A stretch of 64,000 nt of DNA from Octopus sinensis (lineage: Eukaryota). Positions 3,090 to 59,745 of the stretch are shown here, piece after piece. Position 1 is the stretch's first letter. Each line of letters starts with the position of its first letter. The DNA is taken from the NCBI RefSeq assembly GCF_006345805.1, contig NC_043013.1, positions 16,740,001 through 16,804,000 on the forward strand, in the 5' to 3' direction. Made by a program: the position numbers and the translations under genes. The notes below the pieces were generated by a model, which ran no database searches, was not told the origin of the DNA, and saw only the letters and a program-made list of their open reading frames with translations.

Positions 3090-3130
3090 GTATATGTGTG
3101 TGTGTGTGTGTGTAATAATAATAATAACAA

Positions 3131-4678
3131 TAGGGAGTATAATTCCAAACTTACAGGGAAAAAATTCAATTTAGTATTAAATCAAATTTCACAATATAAA
3201 TATATAAAATATAAATTAGAGAAAAAAACACTATTATGCAATTCAAATAATGATAGACATAAACCAAATCATAAATAAAAAATAAAATGTTTTTATAAAA
3301 CATGTAACTAGATCACACAAAGTATAAAAATGAATAATCAATATATAATATGTAAAAAAATCTACGTACGTTTCATGGCTATAATTAAATTCGAATTACA
3401 ATTAATTTTAATTTAATCGAAAATCAATTCAATTTAAAATTATAGTCACTCTTCAGGTTAACAATAATAGTTAAATAAATAAGCAAATAGAGTTAAACAA
3501 TATTTATTTAAGAAATAAAATAATGATTTTTCTTATAGAAGAAACTCCATTAACTAAATTTGAAACTTAAAACATTAGGATCAGTTTCTTACAATACATT
3601 TATTATGTTAAATATTTAAGGTAAAAGAAAATAGAGTAAACAGATAAAAAAATGTGTTTATCTGTTAAGATATAATTTAGCTTAATAAAAAACATTAATA
3701 AACTATAGAATATCTTTAACCTAGTTATACTCTAATATTTAATTACCAAACTATTTTAAAAAACAATCACTCTTAATATTTTTAGATTTTAGTTCGCATA
3801 TAATAATTATAAAATAATAAATATATAAAAATAAGTATCTAAATTATTATCAACAAATATAGTAATTAAAAATCTATATTTTTTTCTATCAATAAACATA
3901 TAATAAATGAGTTCATTATTACTTACATAAATATTATAGATATCTTTCGAAAATATTTATGAAATAAAAAATAAGAATTGAAAAATTCAAAAGTAAAAAC
4001 GTATAACTTATCTTTATAAAATACTTATTATTACTATTATTATTAAATGAAATAGTACTAGAAATATAATAAGAAACTTATAGTTAAATTAAAACATTTA
4101 TACGATCTAGAGCCCAAAGTGACTAATTAATATTTTAAAATTTACGTTCAGATATAATAATTATAAAATAATAATAATTAAATAAATGTACATATCTAAA
4201 TTATCATTAACGAATAAAAAATTATAAATTCATATTTAACAATCAATACTTATATAGAGTACAATAATATTTCTTAAATAAAAAAAAAGCTTATTTATCT
4301 CTCCAAAAGGCGTATTATTAACTAAAAAATTTCAAAACGAAAAACGTCTATAAATTACTCGTAGAGTGACTATAATTTTAAATTGAATTGATTATCTATT
4401 AAATTTAAATTCAATTGTAATTCGAATTTAATTATAGCCATGAAACGTACGTAGTTTTTTTTTTACTTATATATTGATTATTCATTTTTATACTTTTTGT
4501 GATCTAGTTATATGTTTTATAAAAATACATTTTATTTTTTATTTATGATTTGGTTTATGTCTATCATTATTTGAATTGCATAATTGTGGTTTTTTTCTCT
4601 AATTTATATTTTATATATTTATATTGTGAAATTTAATTTAATACTAAATTGATTTTTTTCCCTGAAAGTTTAGAGCTA
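3131..4678. mobile_element. Penelope-like element remnant with inverted terminal repeats
   Basis: About 3131-3453 is the reverse complement of about 4363-4678. Internal duplication of about 3775-4010 at about 4130-4350. Flanked by (AAT)n/(ATT)n. Carries a hammerhead. Confidence 0.75.
3359..3460 (-). ncRNA. type I hammerhead ribozyme motif, long stem II
   Basis: Minus strand: aac CTGAAGA gtgactataat...attatagccat GAAAC gtac GTA gat. Stem III ACGTACGT is palindromic. Confidence 0.75.
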
Positions 4679-4724
4679 TTATTATTATCATTATTATTAT
4701 TACACACACACACATATATATATA

Positions 4725-5500
4725 GTAGTAACAGAAAAGAGGAATTTCGATTATCCCCACGTGGTGAGTTGTAATGTATATAAAAAATTAAAAAAGGAAA
4801 ATACGCACACTTACATAGTTTTAATATAATTTTTAATATATCGACCGGTTTTGCTATCGCTATTCATGATATTTTGTTTTACTTATTTGAATATATATTT
4901 TTTCTTAAGAAGAAATTTGGTCTATGTTGTGTGTGATGAAATTCACGAGTGAATAACTTCACAAGTAGATAAATAAAGGGTGGTAATTGTTGTCGCTATT
5001 ATTGTTATTGTTATGGGTAGGGGAGATAACTGTTCAGCTTTCGGTAATGGGTGGGGATTATATATGTGTGCAGACAGAGACAAGTTTCAAAGACCTTGTT
5101 TAGTAGGGGATTTATGTACAGTGATGTAATCGTGAATTGAAATATGTAAAACGATAAAAGCTGGTTATGCGTGCATATTAAGACGTGTTTTGTATTTTTC
5201 AATGAAAAAAGTTTCTTTATTTAAACGTTCTAGTTGAGAGATTGCATCTTTGCACTGGTAGAAAGGGAAGACTGAAATTTGGTTTGATGTTACCTGCACA
5301 TTTTTCTATATGTTCACTGAGAGGAATTTGTCTGTATTGCAAGAAACGGATTTGCTCTTTATGTAGAGTGGTTCTCTTTCTCAAGGTCATACTCGTTTGT
5401 CCAATATAGTGGTGTCCGCAACCCGAGTAGGTTATTACATAAATTAGGTTCTCAGTAGCACAAGTGAAGCTAGTTTTAATTGTGAACCTCTGTCCTTGTG
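4725..5500 (-). mobile_element. Penelope-like retroelement 3' fragment (GIY-YIG endonuclease plus pLTR)
   Basis: GIY-YIG peptide followed by a 3' non-coding segment with a decayed hammerhead (4838-4873). Ends at (TA)n. Confidence 0.8.
5217..5500 (-). pseudogene. GIY-YIG endonuclease remnant of a Penelope-like (Neptune-type) element
   Basis: FTCATENLIYVITYSGCGHHYIGQTSMTLRKRTTLHKEQIR...PLSEHIEKC gives the LIY...YIG motif with R..H. Truncated upstream by (GATA)n. Confidence 0.85.
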
Positions 5501-6593
5501 AACATATAGATAGGTAGATAGACAGACAGACAGACAAAGAGACAGACAGATAGATAGATATACATAGACAGATCGATATAGCTGCATAACTATAGATGTG
5601 TACCTCATCCGACTTTGTTGCCTCATAGCTTTCAGAAAAAGGGATACTTTTTAACGAAATTTTCAACAAATACCGATTAGATGCTGTGGATGCAGAGTAA
5701 GTAGGGATTTAGGGGAAATAATTTTTTCGAGAGGGTGAGGAGAGGAGTTTTGGAAAATTCACACGATCCGACTTTTTTTCAGGAAAATGAATAGCTTTTA
5801 ATGAAATTCTATACAAATACCTTTCAAACGGCATAGATTATGATTATCTTTCCTTTCTCACTGTCGAATGTATTGATGACAATTTCAGCGTGTAAGATAT
5901 TTACCACTGATAAACCTTGACCAAGTTTTGTTAGTGAAGAGGTCGCGGTTTCAAAGCGACGAAAATATTTTGATACAAATGGAATTTAAATGAAGTGAAA
6001 CTAACGGTTTTTGTGTGTTTACAAATATCTTCCACGCTGCAATTGTTTTTGTTTCAACTCATGATCTCAGATCAAGTCACCTGCTATAGAAGTACATCTC
6101 CGTAATGAATTGATGATTTTCAATACATACATGCAGGCGTGAAAATGGAGAGTAGTTTGGGATGCGCTAGAAACAACAGCCAAATCTCCTTTGAGTCGTA
6201 CTCTTTTTCCGCTGAAAATATTTACAACTATATAAAAAAATTTTTTTTACCGTAAAGGCTCCTCCTAAGGGCGTTACTTCTTTCAGTAAGTTATCGCAGT
6301 TGTTTGCAAATAGTGAATTAAGACTTGAAATGAAAACATTCAAAGAGAAAGTGAGGAAATTTGCAAATGAAAACGAACAATTCTCCATTGCTACGTTCAT
6401 ACCGGAAGTTGATATTGCAAAACCTTTTGAAAGAAGTGAATCATATATACAAAGCAATATTATGAATTTTTAAGAAAAAAAAAACTGAATGCCCCATTAT
6501 TTTTCCAGAATGAAAGCATTTACACATGCCAGGTATGAAGGCAATTCGCGCAACCGTTTTGGCGTGAAAAGTGAATACACACACACACACACA

Positions 6594-10284: not shown

Positions 10285-11075
10285 GGGTACTTTTTAGTTA
10301 TCTCCCCGCTCCTAAAAGATTGGGTTATTCCCCCCCCCCCGTTTTACGAGAAATATTGGTACTTTTGGTTATCGCCTTCAACTGAAAAAGTTGTTTAATC
10401 CTCAATAAAACAAAACAAAAAAAAATGAAAAAATTAATAAACATGAAAACTGAAAAAAATTAAGCATCTTACTGAATCTGTTAACATTTTTATTACAAAT
10501 CCTACTAGGCACAGGAGTGGCTGTGTGGTAAGTAGCTTGCTAACCAACCACATGGTTCCGGGTTCAGTCCCACTGCGTGGCATCTTGGGCGTCTTCTGCT
10601 ATAGCCCCGGGCCGACCAATGCCTTGTGAGTGGATTTGGTAGACGGAAACTGAAAGAAGCCTGTCGTATATAAGTACGTGTGTATGTGTGTATTTGTGTG
10701 TCTGTGTTTGTCCCCCTAGCATTGACAACCGATGCTGGTGTGTTTACGTCCCCGTCACTTAGCGGTTCGGCAAAAAGAGACCGATAGTATAAGTACTGGG
10801 CTTACAAAGAATAAGTCCCGTGGTCGATTTGCTCGACTAAAGGCGGTGCTCCAGCATGGCCGCAGTCAAATGACTGAAACAAGTAAAAGATAAAAAGATA
10901 AAGATTCCTATTGAGGAAGCCAAACGTCAACAATGTGTTGAAGTATTGAATCAAAAGGATCTGACCCTCTTAATCCAATCTCTTGTCACCACATTAACTC
11001 GATCTTTTAATGGGGAGATAAACCAGTTTTTTAATGGGAATTTTTTAATGGGGGTGAGATAACCAAAAAGTACTC
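10285..11075. mobile_element. MITE interrupted by a SINE
   Basis: TIRs GGGTACTTTTTAGTTATCTC / GAGATAACCAAAAAGTACTC, lying within (ATGT)n. Confidence 0.65.
10507..10900 (+). mobile_element. SINE family B, well-preserved copy
   Basis: GGCACAGGAGTGGCTGTGTGGTAAGTAGC...GGTTCAGTCCC...GACTGAAACAAGTAAAAGA. Confidence 0.9.
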
Positions 11076-11361: not shown

Positions 11362-11392
<31 letters not shown>

Positions 11393-11425
11393 TATATTAT
11401 ATATATATACATATATATATAATAC

Positions 11426-11477
<52 letters not shown>

Positions 11478-11516
11478 CATATATATATATATATATAATA
11501 TATATATAATATATAC

Positions 11517-11547
<31 letters not shown>

Positions 11548-11651
11548 CATATATATACATATATATATATATTATATATACATATATATATATACATATA
11601 TATATATACATATATATATACATATATATATAATATATATATTATACATAT

Positions 11652-11702
<51 letters not shown>

Positions 11703-11706
11703 ATAA
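11362..11706. repeat. imperfect (TA)n microsatellite
   Basis: Directly visible; source of the spurious YIYI ORFs. Confidence 0.95.
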
Positions 11707-11875
11707 ATATTAGGGAATAAATCCAATTTACAGGGAAAAAATCAGATTTAGGATTAAATCCAATTTTATAGTAAAATATTATATAATATTAATTCGAGAC
11801 AAAACCACTATTTTGCAAAACAAACAAGGAAAGACTTAATCAATACATAAAAATTTTAATATAAAGAATAAACCG

Positions 11876-11918
11876 CCACTACAATCGTTTCATGTCTTCA
11901 ATGACATTCGTCAGGTGG
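11876..11918 (-). ncRNA. type I hammerhead ribozyme motif
   Basis: Minus strand: ccac CTGACGA atgtc attgaa gacat GAAAC gatt GTA gtgg. Confidence 0.85.
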
Positions 11919-11986
11919 ATTTTCCATCTCCTAATCTGTTTTAATTTATGAATTCATAAATTAAAACAGATTAGGAGATCGAAAAT

Positions 11987-12029
11987 CCACCTGACGAATG
12001 TCATTGAAGACATGAAACGATTGTAGTGG
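11987..12029 (+). ncRNA. type I hammerhead ribozyme motif
   Basis: ccac CTGACGA atgtc attgaa gacat GAAAC gatt GTA gtgg. Stems I and II are perfect and the cleavage triplet is GUA. Confidence 0.85.
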
Positions 12030-12114
12030 CGGTTTATTTCTTTATATATAAAAATTTTTATGTATTGATTAAGTCTTTCCTTGTTGTTTTGCAAAATAGT
12101 GGTTTTGTCTCGAA

Positions 12115-12155
<41 letters not shown>

Positions 12156-12159
12156 CACA

Positions 12160-12606
12160 GATAAATACATTTTCCTATCTATTTACTCTATTTTTTTACC
12201 TTAAATATTTAGCATAATAAATATATTGTAGGCAACTGGTCCTAATGTTTTAAGTTTCAAATTTAGTTAACGGAGTTTCTTCTATAAGCAAAATCATGAT
12301 TTTATTTCTTTAAGAAATATTGTTTAGTTCTATTTGCTTATTTATTTAACTATCATTGTTATTATTGTTAACCTGAAGAGTGACTATAATCTTAAATTGA
12401 ATTGTTTTTCATTTAAATTTAATTGTAATTCGAATTTAAATTATAGCCATGAAACGTACGTATTTTTTTACCTATTATATATTCTTTATTCTTTTTTGTA
12501 CTTTTAGTGATCTAGTTATATGCTTTAAAAAATATATTATATTTTTTATTTATGATTTGGTTTATGTCTTTCATTGTTTGAATTGCATAATAGTGGTTTT
12601 TCTCTA

Positions 12607-12612
<6 letters not shown>
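12160..12612 (+). mobile_element. Penelope-like pLTR copy (same family as 3131-4678)
   Basis: Reverse complement of about 3210-3665. Contains CTGAAGA...GAAACGTACGTA at 12370-12465. Ends in (TA)n. Confidence 0.8.
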
Positions 12613-20397: not shown

Positions 20398-21230
20398 TAT
20401 AGTAAAAATTACTTAAAGTAGCGTACCAACGGCCGTTTCTGGGATTTCATTGGGTACCACCGGCCGTTTCTGGGGTTTCATTGGGTACCACCGGCCGTTT
20501 CTGGGGTTTCATTGGGTACCAACGGCCGTTTCTGGGGTTTCATTGGGTACCACAGGTCGTTTCTGGGGTTTCATTGGGTACCACCGGCCGTTTCTGGGGT
20601 TTCATTGGGTACCACCGGCCGTTTCTGGGGTTTCATTGGGTACCACCGGCCGTTTCTGGGGTTTCATTGGGTACCAACGGCCGTTTCTGGGGTTTCATTG
20701 GGTACCACCGGCCGTTTCTGGGGTTTCATTGGGTACCAACGGCCGTTTCTGGGGTTTCATTGGGTACCACCGGCCGTTTCTGGGGTTTCATTGGGTACCA
20801 CCGGCCGTTTCTGGGGTTTCATTGGGTACCACCGGCCGTTTCTGGGGTTTCATTGGGTACCAACGGCCGTTTCTGGGGTTTCATTGGGTACCACCGGCCG
20901 TTTCTGGGGTTTCATTGGGTACCACCGGCCGTTTCTGGGGTTTCATTGGGTACCACCGGCCGTTTCTGGGGTTTCATTGGGTACCACCGGCCGTTTCTGG
21001 GGTTTCATTGGGTACCACCGGCCGTTTCTGGGGTTTCATTGGGTACCACCGGCCGTTTCTGAGGGTTCATTGCAGCGGAAAAAAATAAAGGGATATAATA
21101 CCCATTAACTGGCAATTCTTCCTTCTTCAGGAGGAATTGCAAAATAATGGGTATTATATCCTTTTATTTTTTTCCGCAATGAACCCCCAGAAACATCCGT
21201 TGGTACCCTACTTTAACTAATTTTAGCTAT
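20398..21230. mobile_element. foldback MITE hosting a minisatellite
   Basis: 21150-21230 is the reverse complement of the left flank plus one repeat unit plus 21073-21104. Confidence 0.75.
20422..21072. repeat. 31-bp minisatellite, 21 units
   Basis: Unit GGTACCA(C/A)CGGCCGTTTCTGGGGTTTCATTG, head-to-tail with no spacers. Confidence 0.95.
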
Positions 21231-21527: not shown

Positions 21528-21592
<65 letters not shown>

Positions 21593-21633
21593 TATCCGAA
21601 ATGTACAGTATTATATATCCATCACGGTTGACC

Positions 21634-21713
21634 TTACCAACCGGTTTCGCGCTAGGAATACAACAGAGTGTAAGATAACAATCTGTTATATAACTTTACG
21701 CTCATCAGAGTTA
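21634..21713 (-). ncRNA. type I hammerhead ribozyme motif, extended stem II
   Basis: Minus strand: act CTGATGA gcg...atataacaga..tctgttgtat...cgc GAAAC cg GTT ggt. Lies in inverted repeat 21588-21680 / 21785-21870. Confidence 0.7.
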
Positions 21714-22121
21714 GCCGATATGGAAAGGAATATGACGACTGCTCTCTATAGAGAACATAAAGTTATATAATCGGATTGTTACCTAATACTCCGTTGTATT
21801 CTTAGCGCGTAACTGATTAGTAAGATCAACCGTGATGGATATATAAGACCGAACATTTTGGATAATATACCCACTCTATTGACAGATATACAAGTGCATC
21901 TTTTCCCTAACTTATGGACTCTTAGATGACTCACGCATATATATATATATATGTATATGTGTGTATATATATATGTATATACATACATACATACATACAT
22001 ATACACACATAACATATACCATATACACAAACATATACATAAGTATACACTAAATATACATACATGTATATATATGTGTGTGTGAGTGTGCATACATATA
22101 TAAACACATACAAATACATCG

Positions 22122-25284: not shown

Positions 25285-26292
25285 ATACATTATATATATA
25301 TATATATTAATAAATAAAATAAAACATATGCATATATATAAACATATATGTACGTACCTACCTCTACATGTACATATACACGCATATATGAGTACAGGAC
25401 ACCAAAAGGACGTCGAACACAAAGAGAAACGAAAACATAGGCACAAACCAAAGGAACTGGACATTTTTTTAAAAACAGCAAAAAAATAAAGTACAGGACA
25501 ATTAACACAAAGAAAAAACCCCTTCTTCAGTCGCTATGGTTTCATCTACTCTACGTTTCGAAGGATAAAAGCGAGACGTATCTTCGACAAAAAACTTTCC
25601 TTCCTGCGAAAAGCAAATCAATTAAAATTCTGAGATCTTTTCGCAGAGGGGTAAAAAATGGTAACAAAAACAGGACAGTAACGGCAGTACAAATTATAAA
25701 CAGTAAAAGACAGGACAAGGAAAAACAAGATAAGAAGGGCTGTTAACGCCGAACGAAAAAAAGTATTGCGAACGCGGAATGTTTTATGAACGACGAGCGA
25801 AGCAAAAAGAATGTCGTCCATTACCTTGAGAGGGCCAGGCCAGAGAGACAGCAGCGGAAGTCACGTCGTGGGTGAACGAAGGAAGGGGAGGAGGAGCAAG
25901 AGAAAGGGAGAGAAGAAGGGGAATGGCTGCGAGGAAACCATGAAGAATGGAGAGAGGGAGAATTTTAATTGATTTGCTTTTCGCAGGAAGGAAAGTTTCT
26001 TGTCGAAGATACGTCTCGCTTTTATCCTTCGAAACGTCGAGTAGATGAAACCATAGCGACTGAAGAAGGGTTTTTTTCTTTGTGTTAATTGTCCTGTACT
26101 CTATTTTTTTGCTGTTTTAAAAAAAATGTCCAGTTCCTTTGGTTTGTGTCTATGTTTTCGTTTCTCATTGTGTTCGACGTCCTTTTGGTGTCCTGTACTC
26201 ATATATGCGTGTATATGTACATGTAGAGGTAGGTACGTACATATATGTTTATATATATGCATATGTTTTATTTTATTTATTAATATATTATA
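25285..26292. mobile_element. Penelope-like inverted repeat (arms about 330 bp, spacer about 335 bp)
   Basis: About 25305-25630 is the reverse complement of about 25965-26290. Flanked by (TA)n. Contains gaagga...tccttc GAAAC GT(A/C). Confidence 0.7.
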
Positions 26293-26328
26293 TGACGAAA
26301 CGCACGCACCCCCTTAAGTAAGATTATG

Positions 26329-35457: not shown

Positions 35458-35532
35458 TCCGGACACGATCGTGTTTCTAACGATCAAACGTTCATAAAAA
35501 CATATTAACACGTGATGCCTTCATCAGCGGAA
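35458..35532 (-). ncRNA. type I hammerhead ribozyme motif
   Basis: Minus strand: tccg CTGATGA aggcatca...tgatcgtta GAAAC acgatcgt GTC cgga. Stem III ACACGATCGTGT is a perfect palindrome. Confidence 0.8.
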
Positions 35533-40890: not shown

Positions 40891-41219
40891 GGATCTTTTC
40901 ACTTTGACCGGCAGATTTTTAAAATAATTTCTATGTAACTAAAAAATTTTAAACTTCGTATACTGGTAGAATGTGTTTATAAAACATCTTTTTCTCTTGA
41001 ATTTCTTGAGAAAATTCTGTAGTTTGTAACATATTTGTCGTTTAATTTCTTGCATTTCGGCAATTTCAACCAATCAATGACGTCTATTGAGGTGAAAACG
41101 ATTTCTGCCGTAACATTTTCTGGCGTTTTATAAACACATTCTACCAGTATACGAAGTTTAAAATTTTTTAGTTACATAGAAATTATTTTAAAAATCTGCC
41201 AGTCAAAGTGAAAAGATCC
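40891..41219. mobile_element. MITE with TIRs of about 94 bp
   Basis: GGATCTTTTCACTTTGAC...GTCAAAGTGAAAAGATCC. Flanks CCCCATTC / TCCCATTC look like an 8-bp TSD. Confidence 0.9.
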
Positions 41220-47194: not shown

Positions 47195-47265
<71 letters not shown>

Positions 47266-47268
<3 letters not shown>

Positions 47269-47422
47269 GTTTGAAAATGCAATTTAAAAGATGTTTATTT
47301 ACTTACCGGTTTCACTCTTTGGAAAAAGATTGTCAAGAGTAACATATGGAAGTTTGGTTGCGTTCCAAAGAGTGAAACCGGTTAAGTAAATAAACATGTT
47401 TTAAATTGCATTTTCAAACCTT
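47266..47422. mobile_element. short Penelope-like inverted repeat between (TA)n tracts
   Basis: Arms of about 57 bp, AAGGTTTGAAAATGC...CTCTTTGGAA / TTCCAAAGAG...GCATTTTCAAACCTT. Contains GAAACCGGTA. Confidence 0.7.
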
Positions 47423-47428
47423 CTTTCG

Positions 47429-47495
<67 letters not shown>

Positions 47496-56592: not shown

Positions 56593-56743
56593 ATGTAGAT
56601 CTAGAGTTACGCATTCGTTATTATTTCTTTATGCGTGTCTTGTGTTTATTTATCTATTTGTTTGTCTTACAATAATTATTTTTACATATTAAATAAATAA
56701 CATTTGTTGTAATCCTCATTCTCTCGTCTTTCTTCTTTTGCAG

Positions 56744-56872
56744 CTCAGAAAGTCGACTTTGATTGTAGACGTTGGGGAGTATCGTGCGCCAAGAATGGAA
56801 GGTGTTTAACAACTTCAAATTACTGCGAATGTTCCAACAATTATACTGGACATGACTGTGGACTTCTAACAT
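56744..56872 (+). CDS. internal exon encoding an EGF-like domain (probable EGF/ZP-type extracellular matrix protein)
   Basis: Acceptor TCTTTCTTCTTTTGCAG, donor GTAAAT, 129 nt, phase 1-1. Peptide xQKVDFDCRRWGVSCAKNGRCLTTSNYCECSNNYTGHDCGLLT has CX6CX5CX6CXCX8C. Confidence 0.85.
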
Positions 56873-57731
56873 GTAAATATGATCTAGTCGGTGTTGTTGA
56901 TGTTGTTGTTGTTGGTGGTGGTGGTGGTGGTGGTGTTGTCTTTATTGTTCTATCCTTGTCATTTCTTTTCTTTCAATTGAAGCATTTAGTAACAGACCGT
57001 CGTAAGTGCCACAACTTAAAAACCGAGAAAAACACAAAGTTTCGCGACTTTCAGAATGCGATATCTCGACAAGGAATGACGTTAGGAAGCTGGTTTTGGT
57101 CTTAAAATGACTGCGAAGACTTCCTCTAACCATTCCACCTATGTAAAATTATATATTTACGTTTGCATCTGAAAGATTAAACAATGACTGCGTCTTTTTC
57201 ATTTTGTAGAATAAATAGGTATTATGAAACGATGTATCGCATTGCATATTTTAGTTATAATACCTAGAAGAAAAAAAAACATACAGAGACCCTCACCCAA
57301 GGTATTGTTTGTGTTTTAATATACCAAGGTAAGTATATTTAAGTGGAAAGTAAGACAAGATAGTAAGATAATAGTCCATTATCGTTTCGATGGTAACGAG
57401 AATATTAGAAAATGAGCCATAACACTAAAAAAACGATATAAGGACCACACCAAAGTTATTGACTGAGCGTGTGTGCTTACGATGGTGTGTTACTAAACTC
57501 TCTGGTCCGAGTGTGGGTCAGCGAGCGTCGTGTCAACAGCGTCATGGTACAATTTTTTTCAGCCGGATTTTTGACCTTATTGCAAGCCTCGCCGGTTCTT
57601 CCTCCCAACGTTTTCGGATTCTAGACGTCGAGACAAAGAAAATGATTCACTAACCTCGAAAATGGCCGGGGTGGTGCTTACGAAATTCTGTTACTAAACG
57701 CCACAGTTGCTTTATACGAATGTATGGTGTG

Positions 57732-58660: not shown

Positions 58661-59100
58661 CTAGGAGGGGTCTCTCTCACACCCAGCTGTTAGATGACGT
58701 TGACTCGACTGAGATCATCCCACCCGTAGATAAGTTTTGTTTTTCATCATGCAGAGTGTCAAACGCTTTACGACGTTGATTTCCTTACACTCCCTTCCCC
58801 ACAGCTTCACGAGGGAGGGAAGAAGGGGGAGAAGCAAACAGGTGCAGGTGTGACCATGGACGCCAACTCCGCGCCATCGACACACGAAAAATTATGCATT
58901 AAAATGGAATAAAAAATGATGTTAAATTATTTTTAAAATCGTAGACTCATCGTAGACGCCGCTAATACTCAGACGGGCTCGATATGAATCACGACTATAA
59001 GATACCCGAATTGGTTAAACTGCACCGCAAAATGTGGGAGGAGTTAGGAATCTAAATCGAAGGGGACAGACACTCACACAACTACAGTTTTATATATATA
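58661..59100 (-). mobile_element. non-autonomous Helitron-like element
   Basis: Minus strand starts TATATATAAAACTGTAGTTGTGAGTGTCTGTC and ends CCTCCTAG|T. Confidence 0.55.
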
Positions 59101-59265
59101 TATATATATATACCAATTAAGGACTGAACACGAAAAGTGGACAGTCAACATGCTAGATATAGACGTCAAATCGCCATTCACCACAAAAGATTATGTTCTC
59201 AGATCAAACTCAACAGAAAACCATAGCAATAAACAAGTGAAAAATATACGAAATAAAATAATTAC

Positions 59266-59330
59266 CCATGTACTAAATTAGTTTCAGCTGTTATTTTCCG
59301 CAAGGAAAACTGCAGCCATCATCAGCATGG
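59266..59330 (-). ncRNA. type I hammerhead ribozyme motif
   Basis: Mirror copy of 59423-59488. Confidence 0.8.
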
Positions 59331-59422
59331 TCCGTTATAAATGTAATTTGCTGGACTAGATGCTAACACGATACCGAATTATCGTGTTAGCATCTAGTCC
59401 AGCAAATTACATTTATAACGGA

Positions 59423-59488
59423 CCATGCTGATGATGGCTGCAGTTTTCCTTGCGGAAAAATAACAGCTGAAACTAATTTAGTACATGG
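59423..59488 (+). ncRNA. type I hammerhead ribozyme motif
   Basis: ccatg CTGATGA t ggctg..ttttcc ttgc ggaaaa..cagct GAAAC taattta GTA catgg. Confidence 0.8.
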
Positions 59489-59745
59489 GTAATTATTTTA
59501 TTTCGTATATTTTTCACTTGTTTATTGCTATGGTTTTGTGTTGAGTTTGATCTGAGAACATAATCTTTTGTGGTGAATGGCGATTTGACGTCTATATCTA
59601 GCATGTTGACTGTCCACTTTTCGTGTTCAGTCCTTAATTGGTATATATAAATATTTTAATCTTCGGATTCTTTTTTAATATGCTAGACCACTGGTCTTAA
59701 TTGATAAATATCAATTTCTACCCTTAATTAATATTATATATATAT

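What the first reader, a model, noticed from the sequence alone, without database searches (positions are those of the whole stretch)
11707..12126. Zero-spacer palindrome centred on GAATTC carrying two textbook 43-nt hammerheads
Seen: ccac-CTGACGA-atgtc-attgaa-gacat-GAAAC-gatt-GTA-gtgg is identical on both arms, while surrounding arm sequence has several differences. The arms are unequal in length, as expected for a partial inverted pLTR. Inference: formed by fold-back priming during reverse transcription. This is the best candidate in the window for an active ribozyme.
Basis: partly seen in the sequence, partly recalled or inferred. Interest (0 to 1): 0.72.

Follow-up and report, generated by a model that had tools for sequence, protein, structure and literature searches.

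The report
Mirror-image stump of Penelope-like retrotransposon
This 420-base palindrome with a hammerhead ribozyme motif on each strand is real, but it is most likely the ordinary dead-end stump left when a Penelope-like jumping gene inserts into a TA repeat, and its ribozymes are predicted to be locked shut by the hairpin they sit in.

Summary
Observation confirmed. There is a zero-spacer palindrome (axis 11952|11953) with identical 43-nt type I hammerhead motifs on opposite strands, one arm 73 nt longer, set in (TA)n. That the two motifs are identical is not evidence of selection (4-5 differences in 175 columns; P about 0.24-0.32). The layout (ribozyme-bearing end, inverted copy head-to-head, one-sided tail, microsatellite target) is the published Penelope-like element (PLE) insertion pattern. 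The window holds three more inverted hammerhead-bearing insertions. Contigs from four public runs show a very abundant, 3'-biased family. Summed depth just past the axis is at most 3% of that just before it, and some contigs run on with non-mirrored sequence, so the axis is not fixed. In a read-through RNA the active fold costs about 77 kcal/mol, and published single metazoan PLE hammerheads are inactive or need protein, so 'best active ribozyme' is not supported. Likely origin: both target strands primed reverse transcription and the two cDNAs joined at a self-complementary site (about 55%); fold-back is the rival (about 33%). No parent ORF was found. The scan reported the same kind of element earlier in two other genomes. 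New member of a known kind; low interest.

The parts
11362..11706 (.). (TA)n microsatellite with scattered C; left flank and likely target
   Evidence: sequence
11707..11779 (-). 73-nt 'tail' on the left arm only; two degenerate 37-nt tandem units (11709-11745, 11746-11782, 70% alike); homologous to the tail of the related element at 3125-3195
   Evidence: D13; 0 of 1000 shuffles reach the score
11780..11952 (-). Left arm: hammerhead-bearing element end in sense on the - strand, 5'-truncated at the axis; no open reading frame
11876..11918 (-). Type I hammerhead motif, copy 1 (helix I 4 bp, CUGACGA, helix II 5 bp, GAAA, helix III 2 bp with self-complementary ACGAUUGU, GUA); cleavage would fall between 11880 and 11879
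   Evidence: cleavage position inferred from the hammerhead consensus
11950..11955 (.). Mirror axis 11952|11953 in GAATTC, 38 nt upstream of each CUGA core; head-to-head junction of two 5'-truncated arms
11953..12126 (+). Right arm: inverted, tail-less copy ending at an internal TA-rich motif that runs into (TA)n
11987..12029 (+). Type I hammerhead motif, copy 2, identical to copy 1; cleavage would fall between 12025 and 12026
12122..12156 (.). (TA)n(CA)n microsatellite; right flank
12157..12612 (+). Neighbouring insertion of a related family (B'): solo, 5'-truncated, tail-less; long-helix-II hammerhead remnant at about 12373-12462; 3' end at the same homologous point as the right arm of the finding

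Best explanation
The palindrome is most likely a one-off by-product of Penelope-like retrotransposition: two 5'-truncated copies of the element's hammerhead-bearing end, likely primed one from each nicked strand of a (TA)n target and joined head-to-head at a short self-complementary site. SHOWN: two arms about 96% alike meet with no spacer; each carries a type I hammerhead motif in outward-pointing sense; only one has the 73-nt tail; both end in (TA)n; there is no ORF; the arm sequence is a very abundant family whose other copies mostly do not carry this junction. INFERRED: an RT/GIY-YIG protein supplied in trans nicked both strands. One nick primed at the outer start site (tailed arm) and the other at the inner start site (tail-less arm). 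The two same-sense cDNAs annealed or were joined at the TGAA/TCA site and were filled in. The hammerhead likely serves the source element as a dimeric or protein-assisted ribozyme. At this locus it is predicted to be silent, because read-through RNA folds into a hairpin of about 170 bp. Confidence is about 0.9 for 'PLE-type insertion stump' and about 0.55 for this exact route.
For: Published pattern: a 5'-truncated inverted copy next to the pLTR, a tail on one end, microsatellite bias (PMC8557442); dual min-HHRs 100-700 bp apart on opposite strands (PMC4209133); palindromes at inverted junctions (PMC3846280). Biochemistry of an Anolis PLE: it nicks and extends both strands, prefers AT-rich DNA, and has two RT start sites that delimit the tail; the HHR needs protein and is dispensable for insertion (PMC11167929). 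In this window the tail-less end recurs in a solo copy with no inverted partner (12157-12612), and (TA)n loose ends sit at 11780-11792 in runs X4 and X9. Both suggest the inner end is a priming site in its own right. Three more inverted hammerhead-bearing insertions, two of them of unrelated sequence, lie in the window, each with its own junction. Summed contig depth just past the axis is 1.9, 2.8, 0.4 and 0% of that just before it in the 4 runs laid, and 2 contigs of X9 run on at 11952 with non-mirrored letters that begin GTCA. Helix III is self-complementary in all 5 motif types checked, and the common family variant at 11886 (16-51% of summed depth) makes it a perfect palindrome.
Against: No RT/GIY-YIG ORF is linked to this family: none in the arm, no genome held, and the GIY-YIG fragment at 5217-5507 is weak (Pfam E 0.011, below cut-off), unlinked, and found no relatives among longer proteins. 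Exact symmetry here (0 nt) and at 59374-59379 (6 nt) is what a fold-back gives most simply. The tail (73 nt) is about twice the published 30-40 bp. The depth figures are summed contig depths, not copy numbers; they drop near the end of the stretch partly for technical reasons, and palindromes break short-read contigs. The non-mirrored continuation rests on 2 contigs (agreement 0.65) from one run. The two-start-site chemistry was shown in a lizard element, not in this family.
Confidence: 0.55

Rival explanations
1. Same element and same verdict, but made by fold-back. One nick primes a single cDNA through the tail and hammerhead; its 3' end folds back on a short self-complementary site and copies itself; the new strand leaves at the internal TA-rich motif by annealing to the (TA)n target, which makes the second arm tail-less.
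For: All four inverted junctions in the window show local symmetry: 0-nt spacer here, 6-nt spacer at 59374-59379, a perfect 12-nt palindrome at 21743-21754 (background 2.7% per 25 nt), and a 4-bp hairpin at 4357-4367. The run-on letters in X9 make TGAA-GTCA a near-palindrome at the axis. Self-priming was proposed for such junctions in PMC3846280, there on an antisense template.
Against: A solo tail-less copy exists beside the finding. In the old pair at 21588-21937 the arm with the longer 5' end lacks a tail, while the other may have a 70-nt one (2 of 1000 shuffles against one tail, the best of 6 comparisons); fold-back would need a later deletion to give this. Annealing of two cDNAs at a palindromic site also gives symmetric junctions.
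Confidence: 0.33
2. The palindrome is itself a mobile unit (MITE-like, or a palindromic retro-master) copied whole, with two conserved ribozymes.
For: Some low depth continues past the axis in 3 of 4 runs (203, 61, 17), so a few copies may share the junction; the arms are young.
Against: Depth past the axis is at most 3% of that just before it; X9 contigs continue without mirroring; the arms are unequal; related copies in the window are solo or asymmetric; the identical motifs are expected by chance.
Confidence: 0.07
3. Assembly or library artefact (fold-back chimera).
For: 3 of the 4 arm differences are indels in A/T or TA runs, as sequencing errors would be.
Against: The flanks are not mirrored; the short arm stops at an end that recurs in other copies; there is one substitution between the arms; inverted pairs of different ages (98%, 91%, 76% alike) occur in the window.
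Confidence: 0.03

Closest known systems
Insertion units of canonical endonuclease-positive Penelope-like elements (pLTR + adjacent inverted 5'-truncated copy + one-sided tail; PMC8557442 Fig. 2 legend, PMC3846280)
   Same: Head-to-head inverted copy, palindromic junction, tail on one arm, hammerhead in the repeat, AT-rich microsatellite target, 3'-biased family.
   Different: No ORF or direct pLTR pair here; only the two ends remain. The tail is 73 nt (two 37-nt units) against 30-40 bp. The clade of the parent is unknown.
Metazoan PLE hammerheads: min-HHRs and variants with a small palindromic helix III (PMC4209133)
   Same: Type I core, helix I 4 bp, tiny self-complementary helix III suited to dimer folding; pairs on opposite strands 100-700 bp apart were already noted in Schistosoma.
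   Different: [quoted passage not shown]
Non-LTR retrozymes (PMC7229834; bioRxiv 10.64898/2026.07.22.740005)
   Same: Short, non-coding, low-GC (27%), type I hammerhead, probably mobilised by PLE proteins.
   Different: Retrozymes are head-to-tail tandem repeats that release circular monomers; this locus is head-to-head, so no RNA from it carries two same-sense ribozymes.

Membership tests
Type I hammerhead motif (PLE type) | Core CUGANGA ... GAAA ... UH with helices I and II paired | tested here: met
   CUGACGA, GAAA, GUA; helix I 4 bp, helix II 5 bp; mean 0.01 hits in 200 shuffles
Type I hammerhead motif (PLE type) | Short helix III with palindromic sequence allowing a dimer | tested here: met
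   8-nt self-duplex -5.8 kcal/mol; two copies co-fold through it; family variant at 11886 makes it perfect
Type I hammerhead motif (PLE type) | G10.1-C11.1 pair and extra nucleotide between 9 and 10.1 (usual in min-HHRs per PMC4209133; typical, not obligatory) | tested here: not met
   A-U pair, no extra nucleotide
Rfam Hammerhead_1 (RF00163) | Score at or above gathering threshold 34 bits | tested here: not met
   10.8 bits, E 5.6; no gathering hit
Active hammerhead ribozyme | Self-cleavage after the NUH triplet | not testable with these tools
   Folding only: active fold +3.6 kcal/mol in 11980-12035, +77 kcal/mol in the whole palindrome; the runs laid were contigs, which cannot show RNA ends
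PLE-derived insertion stump | Inverted 5'-truncated copy adjacent head-to-head | tested here: met
PLE-derived insertion stump | Tail extension on one end only | tested here: met
   73 nt, longer than the published 30-40 bp
PLE-derived insertion stump | Insertion into AT-rich or (TA)n DNA | tested here: met
   (TA)n loose ends
PLE-derived insertion stump | 5' truncation gradient across family copies | tested here: inconclusive
   summed depth at 11754-11763 is 13-48 times that at 11904-11913 in 4 of 4 runs, but summed contig depth is not copy number
Autonomous Penelope-like element | Single ORF with telomerase-like RT and GIY-YIG endonuclease | tested here: not met
   no open frame in the long arm; so not filed as an autonomous PLE
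Autonomous Penelope-like element | This repeat flanks an RT/EN ORF elsewhere in the genome | not testable with these tools
   no genome held; no match in metagenome contigs
Non-LTR retrozyme | Head-to-tail tandem units of 150-450 bp, each with a hammerhead | tested here: not met
   inverted, not tandem, at this locus; tandem copies elsewhere were not examined
MITE / palindromic DNA transposon | Equal terminal inverted repeats and uniform copies with a fixed centre | tested here: not met
   unequal arms; junction depth at most 3% and non-mirrored run-ons

The most novel reading that the evidence does not exclude
These stumps are a genomic footprint of a dimeric, two-strand priming step in Penelope-like transposition. 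In three unrelated hammerhead families of this one window the mirror axis sits 38, 40 and about 50 nt upstream of the CUGA core, and the arm ends fall at one of two sites 70-80 nt apart. If that holds over the many copies this family appears to have, the ribozyme region would be setting where the two cDNAs stop and join. That would give the PLE hammerhead a structural role apart from cleavage and make the open question of how inverted pLTRs form testable by counting.
Probability: 0.2. Interest if true: 0.5.

Novelty: new member of a known kind. Interest (0 to 1): 0.15.

Why it matters
As a single locus it matters little: it is one more copy of a described insertion pattern. Its use is as data. 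How PLEs build inverted pLTRs and tails is still unresolved in the papers read (PMC8557442, PMC11167929), and a very abundant family with short, young, two-armed insertions would let fold-back and two-strand priming be told apart by counting junctions and tails. If the locus is read through, it would also make about 170 bp of double-stranded RNA, a likely substrate for editing or small-RNA pathways (inference; transcription not shown).

Tried and rejected
No whole genome is held, so genomic copies could not be compared directly. Rfam over the whole window found nothing at gathering level; over the palindrome it returned 34 sub-threshold matches, mostly microRNA hairpin models that fit any long hairpin, and these were rejected. 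An exact 21-nt search of metagenome contigs found 0 loci. Sequencing runs: 24 listed, 20 holders in 8 studies and 4 organism labels; no RNA holder is on record, which says nothing about expression. Only 4 of the 24 were laid, all contigs, so RNA ends and cleavage sites could not be seen. A homologue search with the GIY-YIG fragment among longer proteins found none (weak evidence). Selection on the ribozyme from arm identity was rejected. Conservation of the core across family copies is only weakly supported: no variant at 5% or more in the core, and both variants inside the 43-mer lie in loops, but only 7 substitution sites were listed in 275 bases. Whether the arms came from different source RNAs is inconclusive: 2 of 4 arm differences match common family indels, but both lie in slippage-prone runs. 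Tails of the finding and of the 59-kb element are not detectably related (262 of 1000 shuffles). Paper searches for this family or for twin priming in PLEs listed nothing on either by title; the 2 papers listed were not read. A look-up of earlier findings by sequence gave one unrelated note, and by place none.

Full report
OBSERVATION. The mirror axis is at 11952|11953 inside GAATTC, with no spacer. The arms align over about 175 columns with one substitution (11925/11980) and three small indels in A/T or TA runs. The left arm has 73 extra bases (11707-11779) made of two degenerate 37-nt units. Both ends run into (TA)n, and the flanks beyond are not mirrored. The 43-nt motif is identical at 11987-12029 (+) and 11876-11918 (-). 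A type I hammerhead descriptor gives 4 hits in the window against a mean of 0.01 in 200 shuffles. The identity of the two motifs carries no signal: P is 0.32 for 4 events and 0.24 for 5, and a 43-column identical run also lies outside the motif. The motif is atypical for Rfam (RF00163 10.8 bits, gathering score 34) and has A10.1-U11.1.

SURROUNDINGS. The window is microsatellite-rich, with SINE-like repeats, LINE and mariner fragments and an EGF-like stretch. It reads as an animal genome; from memory the repeats resemble those of octopus, which I did not test. The finding is not unique. A second, unrelated palindrome with two hammerhead motifs and a one-sided tail lies at 59100-59731. A related family (3' ends about 78% alike) forms an asymmetric inverted pair at 3120-4690 and a solo tail-less copy at 12157-12612, directly beside the finding, that ends at the same homologous point as the finding's short arm. 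An older pair lies at 21588-21937. All 5 motif types checked have a self-complementary helix III. All four inverted junctions show local symmetry: 0-nt spacer, 6-nt spacer, a 12-nt palindrome and a 4-bp hairpin. In three families the axis lies 38, 40 and about 50 nt upstream of CUGA; with n = 3 and possible ascertainment bias I cannot explain this.

OTHER COPIES. No genome is held. Of 24 public runs listed, 20 hold the sequence, in 8 studies and under 4 organism labels; the best holder may be the source sample. I laid 4 of them, all contigs, on 11704-11978. Summed depth is highest near the 3' end, 13-48 times lower at 11904-11913, and just past the axis only 1.9, 2.8, 0.4 and 0% of the bin before it. 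These are not copy numbers, palindromes break contigs, and the last bins suffer edge effects. Still, a contig crossing a shared axis should reach the first bin past it (my inference from how k-mer contigs end at palindromes). Two contigs of run X9 continue at 11952 with non-mirrored sequence beginning GTCA, so the arm exists in a non-palindromic context and the native site looks like a short near-palindrome. (TA)n loose ends at 11780-11792 in X4 and X9 show that tail-less ends recur; 126 further loose ends were not shown. The common variant at 11886 (16-51% of summed depth) turns helix III into a perfect palindrome, and the other variant inside the motif (an insertion at 11899) enlarges loop II. 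No core variant reached 5%, but power is low (7 substitution sites listed).

CAN IT CLEAVE? On either strand a read-through RNA makes the antisense arm first. Two isolated copies co-fold through helix III, but the two motifs here lie on opposite strands and cannot supply each other in one RNA. In print, a single Schistosoma min-HHR did not cleave and dimers cleaved weakly (PMC4209133), and the Anolis PLE ribozyme cleaved only with its protein and was not needed for insertion (PMC11167929). Against my reading: an axolotl monomer with a 2-bp helix III cleaved 22% in an hour, and a coral retrozyme monomer cleaved efficiently (PMC7229834), so some activity of the excised motif is possible. A transcript starting within about 35 nt of the axis would escape the hairpin; I could not test for one.

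MECHANISM. Best reading (identity about 0.9, route about 0.55): a PLE protein acting in trans nicked both strands of (TA)n; each nick primed cDNA on element RNA, one at the outer and one at the inner start site; the two short cDNAs joined at a self-complementary site. Shown elsewhere for a lizard PLE: both-strand nicking and extension, AT-rich preference, and two start sites bounding the tail. Shown here: the geometry, the recurrent tail-less end and a solo tail-less copy. Inferred: everything about the order of events. Fold-back of one cDNA (about 0.33) explains the exact symmetry most simply and echoes the self-priming proposal of PMC3846280, but needs an extra step for tail-less solo copies and for the pair at 21588-21937 if its weakly supported tail is real. 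A palindrome that moves as a unit (0.07) and an artefact (0.03) are disfavoured.

COMPARISON WITH WHAT IS KNOWN. It works like the inverted-pLTR-plus-tail head of an endonuclease-positive PLE insertion (PMC8557442; PMC3846280; PMC8969392), and opposite-strand hammerhead pairs at this distance were noted in 2014. It is not an autonomous PLE (no ORF), not a tandem retrozyme at this locus and not a MITE. The link to an RT/GIY-YIG parent could not be tested; the GIY-YIG-like fragment at 5217-5507 is weak and unlinked. Differences from the published pattern: a tail about twice as long and no surviving body. Five paper searches listed nothing on this family by title; the library lacks most subscription papers and repeat databases were not available. 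Two earlier AI notes of this scan describe the same kind of palindrome in other genomes. I had reached the PLE reading before seeing them; one of them led me to PMC3846280, and I tested their 'centre not fixed' idea only on this family.

WHAT I SAW OF EACH PAPER. PMC4209133 and PMC11167929: parts 1-2 of 4 (abstract, results, discussion, start of methods). PMC3846280: passages and the Discussion. PMC8557442, PMC7229834 and PMC8969392: passages only. bioRxiv 10.64898/2026.07.22.740005: part 1 of 5. I read no supplements or figures; those of PMC4209133 and PMC8557442 may list this or related families. Hammerhead numbering and the cleavage position after NUH are recalled knowledge.

VERDICT. Real, explained, and a new member of a known kind; interest 0.15. 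The most novel reading left open is that axis position and arm ends record a two-strand priming step tied to the ribozyme region (probability 0.2, interest 0.5 if true).

Noticed in passing
window 59100-59731: A second young palindrome (98%) of unrelated sequence: 6-nt spacer at 59374-59379, hammerhead motifs at 59423-59488 (+) and 59266-59330 (-) with 5-bp helix I and the extra nucleotide before helix II, a tail of about 80 nt on the right arm, (TA)n on both sides.
   Followed up: yes
window 3120-4690: Related family B: a 1.24-kb, 17% GC, non-coding unit on the - strand with a long-helix-II hammerhead remnant (3374-3456) and an inverted partial copy from 4363; its 3' 160 nt are about 78% like the finding's tail end.
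   Followed up: partly
window 21588-21937: Old inverted pair (76%) with a hammerhead remnant on the - strand, a perfect 12-nt palindrome at the junction (21743-21754) and a possible 70-nt tail on the right arm.
   Followed up: partly
window 47255-47435: Short inverted pair in (TA)n whose arms carry GAAAC-CGGT, like the 3' half of a hammerhead; no CUGANGA found.
   Followed up: no
window 35460-35530 (-): Solo hammerhead-like motif with GUC site, 5-bp helix I and a 12-nt perfectly palindromic helix III, but a broken helix II; ends at a (CA)n tract.
   Followed up: partly
window 5217-5507 (-): GIY-YIG endonuclease-like fragment followed by a stop (Pfam E 0.011, below cut-off), possibly the end of a PLE ORF; not linked to the finding.
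   Followed up: partly
window 25296-26293: About 1-kb element with 336-bp terminal inverted repeats (98%); no hammerhead found by the scans. Another 95-bp inverted pair lies at 40891-41219.
   Followed up: no
window 56713-57105 (+): Cysteine-rich EGF-like stretch (Pfam teneurin EGF E 2e-4, below cut-off), perhaps a host exon; whether the finding lies in this gene's intron was not tested.
   Followed up: partly
window 20423-21072: 62-bp period (31-bp subunit) GC-richer tandem array, about 97% alike; several SINE-like repeats (e.g. 10506-10890), LINE fragments and mariner-type transposase fragments lie elsewhere.
   Followed up: no
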